Source: Actinomycetota bacterium
GTDB lineage: Bacteria > Actinomycetota > UBA4738 > HRBIN12
DNA: 50,420 nucleotides
Assembly: GCA_046728055.1 (NCBI GenBank)
Contig: JBKPDU010000018.1
Coordinates: forward strand, 1-50,420
Reading direction: 5' to 3'
Shown piece after piece: positions 24,651 to 29,004 of the stretch (the stretch's first letter is position 1; every line of letters starts with the position of its first letter). Under the pieces are notes generated by a model, which was not told where the DNA came from, searched no databases, and saw only the letters and a list, made by a program, of their open reading frames with translations. Made by a program: the position numbers and the translations under genes.

Positions 24651-25379
24651 TCAGAGCCCGGCCAGGCGCGCCAGTCCCGAGATCTTTCGCAGGACGAACC
24701 GCCGGCCGTCGCGCTCGACCAGTCCCCGTCGCTGGAAGTCCGACAGGATCCTGGTCACGTTCTCCCGACTGCCGCCGCACAGGCTGGCCAGGTCGGCGTG
24801 TGTCACGATGGCCGGCAGGATCGCGCCGTCGTCGGGAAGCTCGTCGAGGCTCGGGGACACCAGCTGGAGAAGGCGTTTGGCCACCCGACCCTTCAGGTCC
24901 AGGAACAGCAGGTCGTCCACGAAGGCCTCGTGGGCACTGACCTGACGCGCCAGTGCGCGGAGCAGGGCCAGCGAGGCCGTCGGCTGTCGGGTCAGGAACG
25001 ACTGGAAGGCCTCCCCCGGTGTGACCCAGACCTCGGTCTCCTCCAGAGCCAGCGCCGCCGCGGTCCTGGGCATCCCCCCCAACAGGCCGAGCTCCCCGAA
25101 GAACTGCGGCTGGTCGATCGTGGTGTGCAGCATCCGCTGCCCGCTGGCCGAGAGTGAGCTGATCTCCACCCGCCCCTCCATAAGGAAATGGATCTCGTGC
25201 GAGGGGTCGCCCTGATGGAACAGGTAGGTGTTCCGCCGGTAGTGACGGAGCGTCCCGGTCGAGGCAAGCTCATGGATGGCGCGGGGGTCGATCCCCTCGA
25301 ACAGCGGCATCCTGGCCATCTGCTCCTCGATCGTCGCCCGAGATCGCATCGTTCGTACCATCAGGCGAAGCGTACCCAC
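24651..25379 (-). CDS. crp: Crp/Fnr-family transcriptional regulator (cNMP-binding domain + HTH)
   Basis: 242 aa. cNMP motif FGELGLLGGMPRTAAA. The HTH recognition helix GGSRENVTRIL has the R-E-x-x-x-R pattern of E. coli CRP (RETVGR). The track start is GTG 25379; internal ATGs (25361, 25349, 25319, 25310) are possible starts. Confidence 0.85.
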   Translation of the reverse strand: MGTLRLMVRTMRSRATIEEQMARMPLFEGIDPRAIHELASTGTLRHYRRNTYLFHQGDPSHEIHFLMEGRVEISSLSASGQRMLHTTIDQPQFFGELGLLGGMPRTAAALALEETEVWVTPGEAFQSFLTRQPTASLALLRALARQVSAHEAFVDDLLFLDLKGRVAKRLLQLVSPSLDELPDDGAILPAIVTHADLASLCGGSRENVTRILSDFQRRGLVERDGRRFVLRKISGLARLAGL

Positions 25380-25411
25380 TCGCTCCGCCGCCGGGCTAGC
25401 CGGAAAATGAG

Positions 25412-25444
25412 GGACGGGCCCGGCGCTTGGCGCCGGGCCCGTCC
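25412..25444 (-). terminator. Perfect 15-bp GC hairpin followed by UUUU on the minus strand (intrinsic terminator or attenuator)
   Basis: GGACGGGCCCGGCGC-ttg-GCGCCGGGCCCGTCC. On the minus strand it is followed by CTCATTTTCC. It lies 24 nt after the small ORF stop and 33 nt before the crp GTG. Confidence 0.6.
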
Positions 25445-25467
25445 GAGGGAATCGCGGTTCGGTGGGA

Positions 25468-25587
25468 CTACGACTTCTTGAGCTTCTTCATCCCCTTCTT
25501 CCGCGTCACGCGCGTCGCAGCCTGCTTGGAGCTCGCCGTGGTCTTCTTGGCCGCTGGCTTCTTCGGGGAGACCTTCTTCGCCGCCAC
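25468..25587 (-). CDS. Unlisted 39-aa Lys/Ala-rich highly basic small protein
   Basis: GGGAGGAGG lies 7 nt before GTG 25587. Translation is VAAKKVSPKKPAAKKTTASSKQAATRVTRKKGMKKLKKS*. All 14 Lys codons are AAG, and 36 of 38 third positions after the start codon are G/C. A hairpin terminator follows. It is below the 60-aa cutoff of the ORF track. Confidence 0.7.
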   Translation of the reverse strand: MAAKKVSPKKPAAKKTTASSKQAATRVTRKKGMKKLKKS

Positions 25588-25667
25588 CCGATTCACCTCC
25601 TCCCCATCTCGTCAGCGCTTCATCGGCATCGGTTGGACCGATCCTGAAGCTCACCCACCGGGGAAGG

Positions 25668-25683
25668 CGTGTCGTCCGTCACC
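25668..25683. promoter_or_regulatory. Degenerate CRP-type box (7/10), in phase with two stronger boxes
   Basis: CGTGTCGTCCGTCACC. Its centre is 24 bp from the next box. Confidence 0.3.
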
Positions 25684-25691
25684 GACCCCAG

Positions 25692-25707
25692 GGTGATGTC
25701 GGTCACA
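25692..25707. promoter_or_regulatory. CRP-type box (9/10 match to TGTGA-N6-TCACA)
   Basis: GGTGATGTCGGTCACA. Its centre is 24 bp from the perfect box. Confidence 0.5.
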
Positions 25708-25715
25708 GCGAAGGT

Positions 25716-25731
25716 TGTGACGCCCGTCACA
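25716..25731. promoter_or_regulatory. CRP-type box, perfect TGTGA-N6-TCACA palindrome
   Basis: TGTGACGCCCGTCACA. It lies 15 nt after the Cys-rich ORF stop, with its centre about 136 nt upstream of the 39-aa ORF start. The Crp/Fnr gene is about 340 bp away. Confidence 0.6.
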
Positions 25732-25746
25732 CGACGGAGATCGAGG

Positions 25747-25956
25747 TCAGTCCAGCTCCGGGAGGTCGAGGGGATCCGGTCGGGGCCTGCACGCCCCGCA
25801 GTACAGAGCGTCCTCGACGACGAGCGCCCTGGTGACGTCGCCTCCTCGAAACAGCTCGAGCACGAACGGGAGGGTCTCGACGTGGTCCTCGCAGATCCCA
25901 CGGCCACAGAAGCGGCACGCTCCCACCGCCGTCCTGCGACAGTGCCAGCAATCCAT
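25747..25956 (-). CDS. Small Cys-rich zinc-ribbon protein (DUF2180-like)
   Basis: 69 aa: MDCWHCRRTAVGACRFCGRGICEDH....YCGAC, with three CxxC pairs plus Cys/His. GGGAG lies 7 nt before the ATG, which is 24 nt downstream of the M50 gene. The family name is from memory. Confidence 0.65.
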   Translation of the reverse strand: MDCWHCRRTAVGACRFCGRGICEDHVETLPFVLELFRGGDVTRALVVEDALYCGACRPRPDPLDLPELD

Positions 25957-25980
25957 CCGCTCACTCCCTCGAGGTCGGGG

Positions 25981-28149
25981 CTAATGCTGCCACGTTCGGT
26001 CCACGCTCGATGACGGCTTCAACGTCCCCTTGCGGAACGCCCCCGCCATCAGCCCGTCGAACCCGTCCCGGTCCAGACGGAACGCCCGCACGGGGGTCCT
26101 GGCCACCACGCTCGCGGTCCGAGGGACCTTCCGCAAGAGCGCGATCTCACCGAAGTGGGCTCCTGGACCCAGGGTCCGTACGAGCGTGCCGTCCTGGAGC
26201 ACCTCGACCTGCCCGGAGCCGATGGCGTAGAACGCGTCGCCGGCCTCGCCCTGCTCCAGGATCGCTTCGCCGGGAGCCACGTTCACCCATCGACCGTGCT
26301 CGAGGATCTCGGACAGCTCGTCGGGCTCGAGCGCAGCGAAGGCGGGCAGCGTGCGGAGCTCGGCCACGGCTTCGAGCGTCGGAGCGAACGCCGGGACGTG
26401 GACCATGTCGGCGAGCAGGCGCTCGAACGTGCTCTTGTCGATCTCGAATACCTGGGCGTCCTCGATGACCTCGACCGTGGCCGTTCTCGGCGCCGCCTCC
26501 GCCAGTCCGAGCTCGCCGAAGGACTCGCCGGGGCCAAGGACCCGGAGGACCCTTCGGTCTCCAGTTGCACGATCCTCCTCCACGACTTGGAGTGTGCCCC
26601 GGCGAACGACGTAGAAGGCCTGGGCTCGGTCCCCCTGTCGGACCACGGGCTTGCCCGCCGGAAACGCATGGAGCCGGACACGTCCTGCGAGGTCGGAGAG
26701 CACGTCCTCGGGCAGCTCCTCGAGGATCGGGAGCCGGTCGATGAGGTTGGCCGCCTCGACCCTCCACGACGTCTCCAGGCGAAACCGGACCTGCTCCCAC
26801 ACACCACGGAGCCTCCGAAAAAGCGCACGCGCCAGTGCGATCAGGCCCCGCAGGAGAGGACCGGTGACGAAGACCATAAGGGCAAGCAGCAGGACGCGGC
26901 CCACGACCCCGCCGTTCCACAGTTTGCCTACCAGGCCGCCGAAGATCTCCCGCCAGAAGTAGAAGGAGGTCGCGAAGGCGAAGATCGAGAACGCCACGCC
27001 GAGCGTCCCGTACAGGCCCAGACCGGCCTCCTGTTTGGAGAACCGCTCCCGTGCCCGGAGCTTCCGCCACAGGTCGTACCGGATGAACTGGAGCGACATC
27101 GGCCGAAGGTCGGGCACCTGGATCAGGTCGGACAGGATCCAGTACCCGTCGAGCTCCAAAAGTGGAACCAGGTTGAGGAAGATCACGAAGTAGTTCAGGA
27201 GGGCGAACTTGTACAGAACCGGCGCCACGATCGACCCGGGGAACGCCCACACGATCGCTGCCGCCGCACCGGCGATGATGAGCTCAGCATAGGGACCGGC
27301 GAACGACTGCACGATCCTGTGGCGGCGCTCCATCATCAGCCCGTCGGAGGAATCGACGAAGAAGGCCGGCGCACCGAAGTAGATCATGAAGCCGGCGCTC
27401 TTCACCCGCCGTCCGTAGTGCACCAGGACGGTGGCGTGGGCCAGCTCGTGGGTGAACGTGAGGAAGTAGTTCAGGGCCAGGATGATGAGCGAGGCCGCCG
27501 CCGCCGACTGGGCGCCGATGCCGAACCGGCCGGAGCGGTACACGGCGATGAACGCGACGAATCCGACGATCGCGATCAATCCCACCGGCACAGCCACCCA
27601 CCCCTTGAAGAACCATCGCAGCCCGTTCCGGTAGCTCCAGTCCACCATCCGATGAGCCCCGGCCCACTCCACCGACAGGGTCCGGACGAACTGCTGGGCC
27701 TTTCGCCGGCCGGTCGACGACGGCTTCAGCGCCCGCCGGACGATCGCGTCGGAATCGACGAACCTCGTCTCCAGGAAGTTGCCCACCCGCAATTGGCGCA
27801 CGAGGTCGATGACGCCGGAGAGCTCCAGGTCGCCCGACTCCCGGAACCGTTCGACCACGATCTCCCGTACGGTCCTCGACCCGTCCATGAGCGACAGCAG
27901 CTCGACCTCACCCGGCTCCAGTCGGTAGTGCAGCAGGTCCCTGGGGTTGGCCACGATCGCATAGTCGTTCCCCCATCGAAGGCGGAACTGCTTGACCTCC
28001 ACGTCCGCGGCAAGCTTGGGACGAAACTCCGCCGGATCGAGCTTCTCCGCCAGGTCGTCCCAAAATCCTCCTTCCCCATCCGAGGGGTGCACGGCCAGAC
28101 GATCGGAGACGGTCCGCCACAGGCCGCTCGGGGACCGGACGGTCGTCAC
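25981..28149 (-). CDS. Membrane M50 (site-2 protease) metalloprotease fused to an N-terminal PqqD/RRE-like domain and two C-terminal cyclic-nucleotide-binding domains
   Basis: 722 aa. HELAH at aa 234-238 within a TM helix, and NLVPLLELDG at aa 326-335 (S2P signature). About 7 hydrophobic helices between aa 185 and 440. cNMP motifs FGELGLAEAAPRTATV and FGEIALLRKVPRTASV. aa ~45-127 (AIVANPRDLLHYRLEPGEVELLSLMDGSRTVREIV...VIDLVRQLRVGNFLE) fit the PqqD pattern. The GTG start overlaps the upstream TGA. Confidence 0.8.
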   Translation of the reverse strand: MTTVRSPSGLWRTVSDRLAVHPSDGEGGFWDDLAEKLDPAEFRPKLAADVEVKQFRLRWGNDYAIVANPRDLLHYRLEPGEVELLSLMDGSRTVREIVVERFRESGDLELSGVIDLVRQLRVGNFLETRFVDSDAIVRRALKPSSTGRRKAQQFVRTLSVEWAGAHRMVDWSYRNGLRWFFKGWVAVPVGLIAIVGFVAFIAVYRSGRFGIGAQSAAAASLIILALNYFLTFTHELAHATVLVHYGRRVKSAGFMIYFGAPAFFVDSSDGLMMERRHRIVQSFAGPYAELIIAGAAAAIVWAFPGSIVAPVLYKFALLNYFVIFLNLVPLLELDGYWILSDLIQVPDLRPMSLQFIRYDLWRKLRARERFSKQEAGLGLYGTLGVAFSIFAFATSFYFWREIFGGLVGKLWNGGVVGRVLLLALMVFVTGPLLRGLIALARALFRRLRGVWEQVRFRLETSWRVEAANLIDRLPILEELPEDVLSDLAGRVRLHAFPAGKPVVRQGDRAQAFYVVRRGTLQVVEEDRATGDRRVLRVLGPGESFGELGLAEAAPRTATVEVIEDAQVFEIDKSTFERLLADMVHVPAFAPTLEAVAELRTLPAFAALEPDELSEILEHGRWVNVAPGEAILEQGEAGDAFYAIGSGQVEVLQDGTLVRTLGPGAHFGEIALLRKVPRTASVVARTPVRAFRLDRDGFDGLMAGAFRKGTLKPSSSVDRTWQH

Positions 28150-28865
28150 GGAGCGGGGCTCTGGGCCTGGCGCTCCTCGTCGATCCGTCGCTGGATGGAG
28201 GAGTACACGGACAAGCGAAGCGGCGGCCGCCGGCTGGAGGCGAACAGGTTCCCCAGGAACGCCCCACCGAGCAGCGCGATGCAGACCGTGGCGATCACCG
28301 TCCCCCAGGAAACGCCGCCACCGTCCTTCGGGACCTGGAGCGAACGGGTCACGGATGCCGTGAGCCCCCGATCATCGGTGGCGGCGAACCGGAACCGCGC
28401 GTCGGAAGGGATCGAGCGCAGGACGTCGGCCGTCGCGGCAAGCGACAGGTTCGCGCCCCCCGTCGTCACGACGACCTCGGCCCCGCTCATCTGGAGGTAG
28501 GAGCCGGCCACCAGGCCCCCGGTCCCGGCGAGGACTTCCTGGTCGCCGATGGCCAGTTTCTGGTCCTCGACGTCGTACGTGACGGTCTCGACCGCTTGAC
28601 CTCCGATGAGCAAAGAGAGGTCGAGTTCGTGCAGTCCCAGCCACCCACCGACCTCGGCCGCGTCGATCCGAAGCACCAGCCGGGATCCGAGTGCGAGGGC
28701 CCCGGAGGCGCTTCCTCCGACCGTGGGGCCCTCCGTCACCGCTCCTGCCGGTGCACCAGCCACGCCGAGCGCGATGGCGGATCCCATCAACGCTGCTGCG
28801 GCCCGAGCCCCTCGCTTCCACTTCACGGCCGGGCCATCTTCGTTCCGCTCACCTGGCCATGGCAA
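28146..28865 (-). CDS. Exported protein with N-terminal signal peptide and C-terminal transmembrane anchor plus a basic cytoplasmic tail
   Basis: 239 aa. Signal region KWKRGARAAAALMGSAIALGVAGAPAGA, a Gly/Val/Thr-rich beta-like ectodomain, TM WGTVIATVCIALLGGAFLGNLF, and tail ASSRRPPLRLSVYSSIQRRIDEERQ. Its stop overlaps the M50 gene start (GTGA). Confidence 0.6.
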   Translation of the reverse strand: MPWPGERNEDGPAVKWKRGARAAAALMGSAIALGVAGAPAGAVTEGPTVGGSASGALALGSRLVLRIDAAEVGGWLGLHELDLSLLIGGQAVETVTYDVEDQKLAIGDQEVLAGTGGLVAGSYLQMSGAEVVVTTGGANLSLAATADVLRSIPSDARFRFAATDDRGLTASVTRSLQVPKDGGGVSWGTVIATVCIALLGGAFLGNLFASSRRPPLRLSVYSSIQRRIDEERQAQSPAP

Positions 28866-28897
28866 CAGGTCGTCCAGAACCCAACCCGCCCCCGAGA

Positions 28898-28913
28898 CGT
28901 GACGGATGGCACA
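28898..28913. promoter_or_regulatory. CRP-like box (8/10) in the divergent region upstream of the M50 operon
   Basis: CGTGACGGATGGCACA. It lies 33-48 nt upstream of the first possible start of the 28865 gene and about 92-107 nt upstream of the divergent 29005 ORF. Confidence 0.35.
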
Positions 28914-29004
28914 GGAGGTCGGTGGCTCCGGTCACCGAAGTGTTCCCGGCTCATCCCCTAGCCTTCGTCCGTCCGGAAGCAACGACACGCAGGAGGCGAT
29001 CGAG

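What the first reader, a model, noticed from the sequence alone, without database searches (positions are those of the whole stretch)
25668..25731. Three CRP-type boxes in strict 24-bp phase next to a crp gene
The boxes are TGTGACGCCCGTCACA (25716-25731, 10/10 to TGTGA-N6-TCACA), GGTGATGTCGGTCACA (25692-25707, 9/10) and CGTGTCGTCCGTCACC (25668-25683, 7/10). Their centres are exactly 24 bp apart. In DNA this poor in A/T, an exact box is expected far less than once per 50 kb; this is a rough estimate from composition, not a computation. The adjacent regulator keeps the R-E-x-x-x-R recognition-helix pattern (SRENVTR) that reads TGTGA in E. coli CRP. An array of phased sites is unusual for CRP-type promoters and suggests cooperative or higher-order binding. 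A further 8/10 box sits at 28898-28913.
Basis: partly seen in the sequence, partly recalled or inferred. Interest (0 to 1): 0.6.

Follow-up and report, generated by a model that had tools for sequence, protein, structure and literature searches.

The report
Close-packed Crp-box array before peptide gene
Three evenly spaced docking sites for a cyclic-nucleotide-sensing (Crp-type) regulator are real and conserved in over 100 uncultured soil actinobacterial genomes, and they appear to form the activator-dependent promoter of a tiny, very basic peptide gene rather than of the crp gene itself.

Summary
The boxes lie at 25716-25731 (10/10), 25692-25707 (9/10) and 25668-25683 (7/10), with centres exactly 24 bp apart. 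They hold the two best matches to the box model in this 2.3-Mb genome.

All genes here are on the minus strand. The array therefore lies upstream of a 39-aa polybasic ORF (25468-25587), not directly upstream of crp (24651-25379).

In 87 non-redundant related loci:
- Arrays have 2-5 boxes at 22-24 bp pitch (24 bp in 113 cases, 23 in 36, 22 in 11).
- An nAnnnT hexamer (here CAGGAT, 25641-25646) starts 38-39 nt from the last box in 71 of 87 loci.
- That puts the box centres at about -41.5, -65.5 and -89.5. No -35 element is present.
- Boxes match the consensus better with distance from the promoter. The proximal box is never exact (0/70). The distal box is exact in 29/55.

A strict two-box pattern occurs in 113 of 201 genomes of the order. 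A reversed control pattern occurs in none. The pattern tracks the adjacent Crp paralog (105/142 with it, 8/59 without).

Best reading: a cooperative class II/III-type promoter activated by a Crp-family regulator. Binding, ligand and transcription start are untested.

The scan has already found this architecture in other genomes (e1-1468756, e1-5243498, e1-4608065, e1-5217344). It is a new variant of a known kind.

The parts
25716..25731 (.). Box 1, promoter-distal: TGTGACGCCCGTCACA, an exact palindromic Crp-type box. Predicted centre about -89.5.
   Evidence: Best weight-matrix hit in the genome at 25.9 bits. The distal position is exact in 29/55 related arrays.
25692..25707 (.). Box 2, middle: GGTGATGTCGGTCACA, 1 mismatch. 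Predicted centre about -65.5.
   Evidence: Second-best hit in the genome at 19.2 bits. Conserved within the genus alignment.
25668..25683 (.). Box 3, promoter-proximal: CGTGTCGTCCGTCACC, read GGTGACGGACGACACG on the minus strand; 3 mismatches. Predicted centre about -41.5.
   Evidence: 13.6 bits. The proximal box is never exact in relatives (0/70). Position 12, a T in the consensus, is A or G in 53/70.
25641..25646 (-). Predicted -10 hexamer CAGGAT. No -35 element is present.
   Evidence: An nAnnnT hexamer starts 38-39 nt from position 1 of the last box in 71/87 non-redundant loci; other offsets mostly score 0-7. CAGGAT is the commonest form. It is conserved in the genus alignment. The consensus scan finds no sigma-70-type -35/-10 pair.
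25634..25634 (-). Predicted transcription start (within about 2 nt), giving a 5' leader of about 47 nt.
   Evidence: Inferred only: it is placed 7 nt after the -10 hexamer.
25596..25603 (-). Ribosome-binding site GGAGGAGG, 8 nt before the GTG start codon.
   Evidence: A purine-rich Shine-Dalgarno motif precedes the small ORF in all 100 loci where that ORF was recognised. The motif was one of the search criteria.
25468..25587 (-). 39-aa polybasic ORF (MAAKKVSPKKPAAKKTTASSKQAATRVTRKKGMKKLKKS). This is the gene directly served by the array.
   Evidence: An ORF of this family was recognised in 100/108 loci. It has a conserved head, MAEKKI(S/T)PKAP...AATRVTK, and a hypervariable tail of basic repeats. 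It has no Pfam or NCBIfam family, and database relatives are only named 'hypothetical protein'.
25412..25444 (-). 15-bp GC-rich hairpin followed by a T-run, acting as terminator or attenuator between the small ORF and crp.
   Evidence: A hairpin of -12 kcal/mol or stronger follows the small ORF in 81/87 loci, with differing stem sequences. Only 18 of those have a run of 3 or more T.
24651..25379 (-). Crp/Fnr-family regulator (cNMP_binding plus HTH_Crp_2 domains; recognition helix GGSRENVTR). It is the candidate binder. The true start is more likely the ATG at 25349 than the GTG at 25379.
   Evidence: Pfam E-values 1.3e-22 and 5.2e-15. Best solved relatives are M. tuberculosis CRP and C. glutamicum GlxR, E 4e-30. 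The helix is invariant in 105 orthologs. The start is judged from the alignment to M. tuberculosis CRP.
28898..28936 (.). Second, weaker phased pair: 28898-28913 (2 mismatches) and 28921-28936 (3 mismatches), centres 23 bp apart. It lies upstream of the p239-protease-zinc-ribbon operon.
   Evidence: A box sits at the same place in 9 of 24 evaluable relatives (4 of the 28 loci have truncated upstream flanks), often with weaker boxes at about 23 bp pitch as read by eye.
25747..28149 (-). Upstream module genes: a 69-aa Cys-rich protein (25747-25956) and a 722-aa M50-type membrane protease with two cNMP-binding domains (25981-28149).
   Evidence: Pfam. NCBIfam daptide_HExxH scores 160 bits, below the 300-bit cut-off. 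Gene order is kept across the order: the Cys-rich gene follows the protease in 28 of 29 loci, and crp lies just downstream in every locus with enough flank except G039.

Best explanation
The three boxes form a conserved operator array for a Crp/Fnr-family regulator. The binder is most likely the paralog encoded 89 bp downstream of the small ORF. The array makes up the upstream half of an activator-dependent, -35-less promoter for a 39-aa polybasic peptide gene.

Shown:
- The boxes, their 22-24 bp pitch and their order are conserved across an order of uncultured soil Actinomycetota.
- The array is rigidly spaced from a -10-like hexamer.
- Boxes match the consensus better the further they lie from the promoter.
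- The array stays with the small ORF and crp when gene order changes, and it duplicates together with the small ORF.

Inferred:
- The cyclic-nucleotide-bound regulator fills the strong distal site (about -89.5) first.
- Neighbour contacts between close-packed dimers then help fill the middle site (about -65.5) and the weak proximal site (about -41.5).
- The proximal dimer activates RNA polymerase as at class II CRP/FNR promoters. This would give a threshold-like response.
- Read-through of the hairpin may feed back on crp.
For: 1. Phylogenetic footprint. Arrays are present in 26/27 relatives found through the protease. They are present in essentially all of 80 further loci found through crp.

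2. Architecture in 87 non-redundant loci:
- Boxes per locus: 48 loci have 3, 17 have 2, 18 have 4.
- Spacing: 24 bp in 113 cases, 23 bp in 36, 22 bp in 11.

3. Extended consensus TGTGACG-N2-CGTCACA. Positions 6/11 and 7/10 were not used to select the boxes, yet they are 90% and 81% conserved.

4. Promoter geometry.
- An nAnnnT hexamer lies 38-39 nt from the last box in 71/87 loci.
- This leaves 22 bp between the site and the second -10 position. A CRP review describes that spacing as exclusive to class II promoters (PMC10187061).
- There is no -35 element.

5. Consensus match by position: mean mismatches are 2.10 proximal, 1.45 middle and 0.67 distal.

6. Specificity. A strict two-box pattern hits 113/201 genomes of the order, usually at one locus each. 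The reversed control hits 0/201.

7. Link to the regulator.
- The pattern is present in 105/142 genomes with a crp242 ortholog and in 8/59 without one (cross-tabulated by hand).
- In G039 a gene inserted after the Cys-rich gene leaves the array with the small ORF and crp.
- In G151 two small ORFs each carry their own array.
- G016 has a 56%-identical Crp homolog but no protease, no small ORF and no array.
- The recognition helix GGSRENVTR is invariant.

8. Precedent. At M. tuberculosis whiB1, two CRP sites 21 bp apart bind cooperatively (PMC2844151).
Against: - No binding, ligand or transcript data exist. The transcription start is predicted from a hexamer only.
- A second Crp paralog (G000:C113:9091-9738, helix RETVNR) scores higher against M. 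tuberculosis CRP, 120 against 108 bits. It could read the same GTGA core.
- A 24-bp pitch rotates neighbouring dimers by about 100 degrees. The upstream sites (-65.5, -89.5) are therefore not at the classical class I positions (-61.5, -71.5, -82.5, -92.5).
- At whiB1 the weaker promoter-proximal site is repressive.
- 37 genomes with the ortholog fail the strict pattern. Some have degenerate arrays and others may lack one.
- The genomes are related, so counts overstate independent support.
Confidence: 0.6

Rival explanations
1. The architecture is the same, but the binder is the genome's other Crp paralog (G000:C113, helix RETVNR, the likely counterpart of M. tuberculosis CRP and GlxR). The small ORF would then belong to a global cAMP regulon, and the adjacent paralog would do something else.
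For: The C113 paralog is the closer relative of M. tuberculosis CRP and GlxR, at 120 against 108 bits. Those proteins bind TGTGA-N6-TCACA-type sites (PMC4117774). The genome has other exact boxes in intergenic DNA.
Against: - Arrays are essentially one per genome and lie 300-450 bp upstream of the crp242 ortholog.
- The strict pattern is 74% present with the ortholog and 14% without it.
- Array boxes share an inner CG/CG signature that the other four exact boxes in the genome lack.
- No box lies upstream of the C113 gene.
Confidence: 0.2
2. The array acts negatively or in two phases. In one version the distal sites activate and the weak proximal site shuts the promoter off at high regulator or ligand levels, as at whiB1. 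In another version the bound array blocks read-through from the protease operon that ends 15 nt upstream.
For: At M. tuberculosis whiB1 the lower-affinity proximal site (-37.5) represses and the upstream site activates (PMC2844151). No terminator is evident between the Cys-rich gene's stop (25747) and box 1. Many relatives carry a further GGTGAC half-site one phase closer to the -10 (positions 24-30).
Against: - The whiB1 promoter has its own -35 element under the repressing site. Here no -35 exists, so basal activity without an activator should be poor.
- The centre-to-hexamer distance is the class II activating one (-41.5), not -37.5.
- The array keeps its position relative to the -10 even when the upstream gene differs (G039; G151).
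Confidence: 0.15
3. The boxes are operators of another protein that reads TGTGA-type palindromes, for example the redox repressor Rex. The genome encodes a Rex homolog.
For: A Rex homolog is present at G000:C54:2817-2960. Several other boxes in the genome are of the TGTGAA...TTCACA type.
Against: From my own knowledge, not checked here, Rex operators have A at position 6, T at position 11 and T before the core. In array boxes position 6 is C in 90% and never A, position 11 is G, and the flanking T occurs in only 6%. The position at the -35 site of a -35-less promoter fits an activator, not a repressor.
Confidence: 0.03

Closest known systems
Class II and class III CRP/FNR-dependent promoters (E. 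coli CRP paradigm)
   Same: - The operator is a 16-bp TGTGA-N6-TCACA palindrome.
- The proximal site is predicted at -41.5 and takes the place of the -35 element.
- There are 22 bp between the site and the second -10 position (PMC10187061).
- Additional upstream sites are present, as in class III promoters.
   Different: - There are 2-5 sites close-packed at 22-24 bp, not sites at class I positions on one face of the helix.
- Consensus match improves away from the promoter, with the weakest site where the polymerase docks.
- The inner CG/CG signature (TGTGACG-N2-CGTCACA) is distinctive.
- The regulator scores 85 bits against the E. coli CRP equivalog model, whose cut-off is 266.
Tandem CRP sites of the Mycobacterium tuberculosis whiB1 promoter (PMC2844151)
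   Same: - It is an actinobacterial Crp.
- Adjacent sites lie about two helical turns apart (21 bp).
- The upstream site is stronger, and its occupation improves occupation of the weaker proximal site.
   Different: - whiB1 has two sites, at -58.5 and -37.5.
- It has its own -35 element, and the proximal site represses.
- Here there are three sites (2-5 in relatives) at 24 bp, no -35 element, and the proximal centre at -41.5.
E. coli mtl operon control region with five CRP sites (PMC13421365)
   Same: It is a many-site CRP array upstream of one promoter, and an architectural or cooperative role has been proposed for it.
   Different: The sites are 43-73 bp apart (-262.5 to -58.5), not close-packed. 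None overlaps the -35 region.

Membership tests
Crp/Fnr family regulator (adjacent gene 24651-25379) | N-terminal cyclic-nucleotide-binding fold plus C-terminal Crp-type helix-turn-helix | tested here: met
   PF00027 E 1.3e-22, PF13545 E 5.2e-15 and PF00325 E 1.1e-7. Full-length alignment to M. tuberculosis CRP structures 3i54 and 3d0s, E 4e-30.
Crp/Fnr family regulator (adjacent gene 24651-25379) | Recognition-helix residues R-E-x-x-x-R/K, which read the GTGA core | tested here: met
   The helix reads SRENVTR and aligns with M. tuberculosis SRETVNK. It is invariant in 105 orthologs. The meaning of these contacts comes from E. coli CRP (my own knowledge, not checked here).
Crp/Fnr family regulator (adjacent gene 24651-25379) | Functional equivalence to the cAMP-activated global regulator CRP, including cAMP binding | tested here: inconclusive
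   NCBIfam CRP equivalog NF008732 scores 85 bits against a cut-off of 266. The phosphate-binding cassette G-E...R-T/S-A is kept. The C-helix pair that contacts adenine (T-S in E. coli, T-N in M. tuberculosis) is H/Q/T-E here. Ligand binding cannot be tested with these tools.
Class II CRP/FNR-dependent promoter | Activator site centred near -41.5 and overlapping or replacing the -35 element | tested here: inconclusive
   The distance from the box to the -10-like hexamer fits -41.5/-42.5 in 71/87 loci, and no -35 element is present.
Class II CRP/FNR-dependent promoter | Transcription depends on the bound activator | not testable with these tools
   This needs a reporter assay or in vitro transcription.
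Class III (tandem-site) CRP promoter | Two or more activator sites serving one promoter | tested here: met
   There are three boxes here and 2-5 in 84/87 non-redundant relatives.
Rex operator (ROP) | TTGTGAA-N4-TTCACAA, with A at position 6 and T at position 11 of the 16-mer | tested here: not met
   Across array boxes, position 6 is C in 90% and A in 0%, and position 11 is G in 90%. The Rex consensus is from my own knowledge, not checked here.

The most novel reading that the evidence does not exclude
The array is a nucleation-and-spreading device. One strong distal site seeds a close-packed filament of Crp dimers at 24-bp pitch, and the filament reaches the polymerase-contacting site only above a sharp cyclic-nucleotide threshold.

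The array switches on a leader/core-type polybasic precursor peptide. That peptide is then cut by the neighbouring membrane protease, which itself carries two cyclic-nucleotide sensor domains. The same second messenger would thus gate both synthesis and processing of a secreted or membrane-active cationic peptide.

The second, weaker array in front of the protease operon would tie the two steps together.
Probability: 0.2. Interest if true: 0.75.

Novelty: new variant of a known kind. Interest (0 to 1): 0.5.

Why it matters
Crp-family activation is one of the best-understood gene switches. Even so, textbook promoters use one or two sites placed on one face of the helix.

This lineage of uncultured soil Actinomycetota instead keeps 2-5 abutting sites, with the weakest one where polymerase docks. 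That layout should turn a graded cyclic-nucleotide signal into a threshold response.

The system is compact and easy to test: one 120-bp fragment and one 25-kDa protein. It could show how cooperativity can be built from operator layout alone.

It is also the only clue to when a widespread, unannotated family of tiny polybasic peptides is made. Those peptides sit in a module with a cyclic-nucleotide-sensing membrane protease.

Against this, it is a variation on a known mechanism, it rests on sequence alone, and this scan has already met it in several sister genomes.

Tried and rejected
- Tandem Repeats Finder found no repeat. The array is not a recent tandem duplication. Only the boxes are alike, not the linkers between them.
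- My first reading frame for the small ORF (25472-25591) was wrong. It gave a spurious acidic peptide, and the first Pfam search on it was meaningless. The frame was corrected to 25468-25587 by third-position G+C content and the ribosome-binding site.
- Enrichment of exact TGTGA-N6-TCACA boxes genome-wide (5 found, about 0.5 expected from base composition) cannot be credited to Crp alone. Some are Rex-type boxes and a Rex gene is present. One-mismatch sites are not enriched: 11 found, about 20 expected from base composition (my estimate).
- I looked for a hidden -35 element inside the proximal box (GACACA). The spacer to the -10 would be 23 nt, so I rejected it.
A 44-aa ortholog found only 'hypothetical protein' entries.
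- Six second loci matching the two-box pattern in other genomes lie next to unrelated genes. They do not define a shared second target.
- No box lies upstream of the other Crp paralog.

Full report
**Observation**

The window is a whole 50,420-bp contig (C18) of a 2.31-Mb, 68% GC metagenome-assembled genome. Related records are labelled as uncultured soil Actinomycetota.

The three boxes are exactly as described:
- TGTGACGCCCGTCACA at 25716-25731, 0 mismatches to TGTGA-N6-TCACA.
- GGTGATGTCGGTCACA at 25692-25707, 1 mismatch.
- CGTGTCGTCCGTCACC at 25668-25683, 3 mismatches.
- Their centres are 24 bp apart.

Counting boxes in the window is not impressive by itself. Sites with at most 1 mismatch number 2 against 0.56 expected. 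Sites with at most 2 mismatches number 6 against 10.6 expected.

The clustering is what stands out. The genome has only 5 exact and 11 one-mismatch sites. The only other pair in the genome with a combined 3 mismatches or fewer lies inside a gene. With a weight matrix derived from related arrays, boxes 1 and 2 are the two best hits in the genome. Tandem Repeats Finder sees no repeat.

**Local anatomy**

Every gene in this stretch is on the minus strand. Read in the direction of transcription, the order is:
- A 239-aa signal-peptide protein (28146-28865).
- A 722-aa M50-type membrane protease with two cNMP-binding domains (25981-28149).
- A 69-aa Cys-rich protein (25747-25956).
- The three boxes, starting 15 nt after that gene's stop codon.
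- A GGAGGAGG ribosome-binding site and a 39-aa polybasic ORF (25468-25587, GTG start).
- A 15-bp GC hairpin with a T-tail (25412-25444).
- The Crp-family gene (24651-25379).

The array is therefore the upstream region of the small ORF. It is not the immediate upstream region of crp.

My first frame for the small ORF was wrong. I corrected it using third-position G+C content and the ribosome-binding site.

**Phylogenetic footprinting**

I searched 40 relatives with the protease. The Cys-rich gene follows the protease in 28 of 29 loci, and crp lies just downstream in every locus with enough flank except G039. Of the 27 relatives examined, 26 have 2-5 boxes at this position. A search with the Crp protein in species-representative genomes added 80 loci, with the same result.

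After removing near-duplicates, 87 loci remain:
- Boxes per locus: 3 loci have 1, 17 have 2, 48 have 3, 18 have 4, and 1 has 5.
- Centre-to-centre spacing: 24 bp in 113 cases, 23 bp in 36, 22 bp in 11. Eight cases at 47-48 bp probably hide a box that was missed.

Positions that were not used to pick the boxes are also conserved. Position 6 is C and position 11 is G in 90%. Positions 7 and 10 are G and C in 81%. The motif is therefore TGTGACG-N2-CGTCACA. Flanks and linkers carry almost no information at the order level. Within the genus, the boxes and the -10 region stand out from a variable background.

As a specificity control I searched 201 genomes of the order with a strict two-box pattern. 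It matched in 113 genomes, nearly always at one locus. The same pattern read backwards matched in none.

**Promoter geometry**

I anchored the 87 loci on the last detected box. An nAnnnT hexamer then starts at position 38 in 49 loci and at position 39 in 22 loci. Most other offsets score 0-7. CAGGAT is the commonest form, followed by CATGAT, CACGAT, GAGGAT and GAAGAT.

In the window this hexamer is CAGGAT at 25646-25641 on the minus strand. Taking it as -12 to -7 puts the box centres at -41.5, -65.5 and -89.5.

[quoted passage not shown] A review of CRP proteins describes that spacing as exclusive to class II promoters (PMC10187061).

No -35 element is conserved. The consensus scan finds no sigma-70-type promoter in 25300-25800.

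The transcription start itself is inferred.

**Consensus match improves away from the promoter**

In 70 loci with the hexamer in place:
- The proximal box is never exact. It has a mean of 2.10 mismatches. Position 1 is usually G, and position 12 is A or G instead of T in 53/70.
- The next box has a mean of 1.45 mismatches.
- The third box has a mean of 0.67 mismatches and is exact in 29/55.

The window follows this rule, with 3, 1 and 0 mismatches. A weak site at the polymerase-contacting position fed by strong distal sites is the arrangement expected for cooperative, threshold-type loading. I use match to the consensus as a stand-in for affinity. That is an inference, not a measurement.

**Which protein binds**

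The adjacent regulator has a cNMP-binding domain and a Crp-type helix-turn-helix. Its closest solved relatives are M. tuberculosis CRP and C. glutamicum GlxR, at E 4e-30.

Its recognition helix GGSRENVTR is invariant in 105 orthologs that are otherwise 53-93% identical. The phosphate-binding cassette is kept. The two C-helix residues that contact the adenine base in E. coli (T-S) and M. tuberculosis (T-N) are H/Q/T-E here, so cAMP is an assumption.

The genome has 19 class III cyclase domains. It also has a second Crp paralog on contig C113, with helix RETVNR, which is slightly closer to M. tuberculosis CRP.

Four lines of evidence favour the adjacent paralog:
- Cross-tabulating by hand, the strict pattern is present in 105 of 142 genomes with the ortholog and in 8 of 59 without it. 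Several of those 8 have the array at a contig end.
- In G039, a gene inserted after the Cys-rich gene leaves a four-box array with the small ORF and crp.
- In G151, two tandem small ORFs each carry their own array.
- G016 has a 56%-identical homolog next to rplS, with no protease, no small ORF and no array.

The genomes are related, so these counts overstate independence. The identity of the binder remains an inference.

A Rex homolog exists, and some other boxes in the genome look Rex-like (TGTGAA...TTCACA). The array boxes never have A at position 6, so Rex is unlikely.

**What the array controls**

An ORF of the small-ORF family was recognised in 100 of 108 loci. It has a conserved head, MAEKKI(S/T)PKAP...AATRVTK. 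Its tail is hypervariable and made of basic repeats, with KRV, TKRQ, SATR, KAVRAT, QKV, SK or NAR units.

It matches no Pfam or NCBIfam family. Database relatives are only named 'hypothetical protein'.

A strong hairpin follows it in 81/87 loci, with differing stem sequences, but usually without a U-tract. The hairpin may terminate or attenuate transcription before crp.

The protease matches the daptide-type RiPP leader-peptidase model below its cut-off, at 160 against 300 bits. The head-and-tail layout of the small ORF makes a precursor-and-protease relationship conceivable. I did not test it.

**The further box at 28898-28913**

This box is real. It has a weaker partner at 28921-28936, 23 bp away.

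A box sits at the same place, upstream of the first gene of the protease operon, in 9 of 24 evaluable relatives. Four of the 28 loci have truncated upstream flanks. Read by eye, one or two weaker boxes often lie at about 23 bp pitch.

The geometry relative to the promoter is not fixed. In this genus the promoter has its own -35 and -10: TTGCCA at 28860-28865, an 18-nt spacer, then GAAGAT at 28836-28841. This is a plausible second operator, less well supported than the main array.

**Comparison with known systems**

Tandem CRP sites are established:
- M. tuberculosis whiB1 has two sites 21 bp apart. The upstream site helps fill the weaker proximal one, which represses (PMC2844151).
- M. tuberculosis ChIP-seq found more than one motif copy at 14 of 191 binding sites (PMC4117774).
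- E. coli mtl has five sites 43-73 bp apart (PMC13421365).

In two literature searches I found no description of close-packed arrays of 2-5 sites locked to a -35-less -10 element, with consensus match improving away from the promoter. That is not proof that none exists.

This scan has met the same architecture in sister genomes before (e1-1468756, e1-5243498, e1-4608065, e1-5217344). Those notes agree with my reading, but they are not independent evidence.

**Verdict**

The feature is a conserved operator array that is very probably functional, and it is best read as a cooperative class II/III-type Crp promoter for a polybasic peptide gene. It is a new variant of a known kind. I rate interest at 0.5 and confidence in the full mechanistic statement at 0.6.

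Noticed in passing
window 28824-28936: There is a second phased pair of Crp-type boxes (28898-28913 and 28921-28936, 23 bp apart) upstream of the protease operon. Downstream lie TTGCCA (28860-28865), an 18-nt spacer and GAAGAT (28836-28841). A GTG at 28824-28826 follows only about 9 nt after the -10. The first gene is therefore probably leaderless and about 226 aa, not 239.
   Followed up: partly
window 25468-25587; L122 (G151:C6:1121500-1124500); L014, L015: The small polybasic ORF family has a conserved 25-30-aa head and a hypervariable basic-repeat tail, like a leader plus core. In G151 two copies lie in tandem, each with its own box array. L014 and L015 also appear to carry a second copy, judged from a ribosome-binding site and the start of an ORF only.
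   Followed up: partly
G000:C54:2817-2960; G000:C143:7880-7895; C165:13915; C7:10120: The genome encodes a Rex homolog. Several TGTGAA...TTCACA-type boxes look like Rex operators rather than Crp sites. One is an exact box between a CcdA-like cytochrome-biogenesis gene and a small membrane-protein gene.
   Followed up: partly
G000, whole genome: There are 19 class III nucleotide-cyclase domains in a 2.3-Mb genome, together with many cNMP-binding proteins. That is an unusually dense cyclic-nucleotide signalling repertoire for so small a genome.
   Followed up: no
window 24651-25379 (residues about 148-153 of the regulator): In the C-helix, the pair that contacts the adenine base in E. coli CRP (T127, S128) and M. 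tuberculosis CRP (T, N) is H-E here. It is H/Q/T-E in orthologs. The nucleotide specificity of this paralog may therefore differ from cAMP.
   Followed up: partly
G000:C13:11269-11284; G000:C171:18200-18215: Two other exact TGTGA-N6-TCACA boxes are single and intergenic. One lies upstream of a gene that looks ComEA-like and the other upstream of a gene that looks like a CpaB/Flp-pilus assembly gene, as read by eye from the translated sequences. They are candidate targets of the other Crp paralog.
   Followed up: no
L116-L121 (G054, G091, G082, G199, G019, G184): A few relatives have a second locus matching the two-box pattern. These lie next to unrelated genes that look, by eye, like a TetR-type regulator, a Pup-ligase-like gene and a decarboxylase-like gene. 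One lies inside a gene. No common second target emerged.
   Followed up: partly
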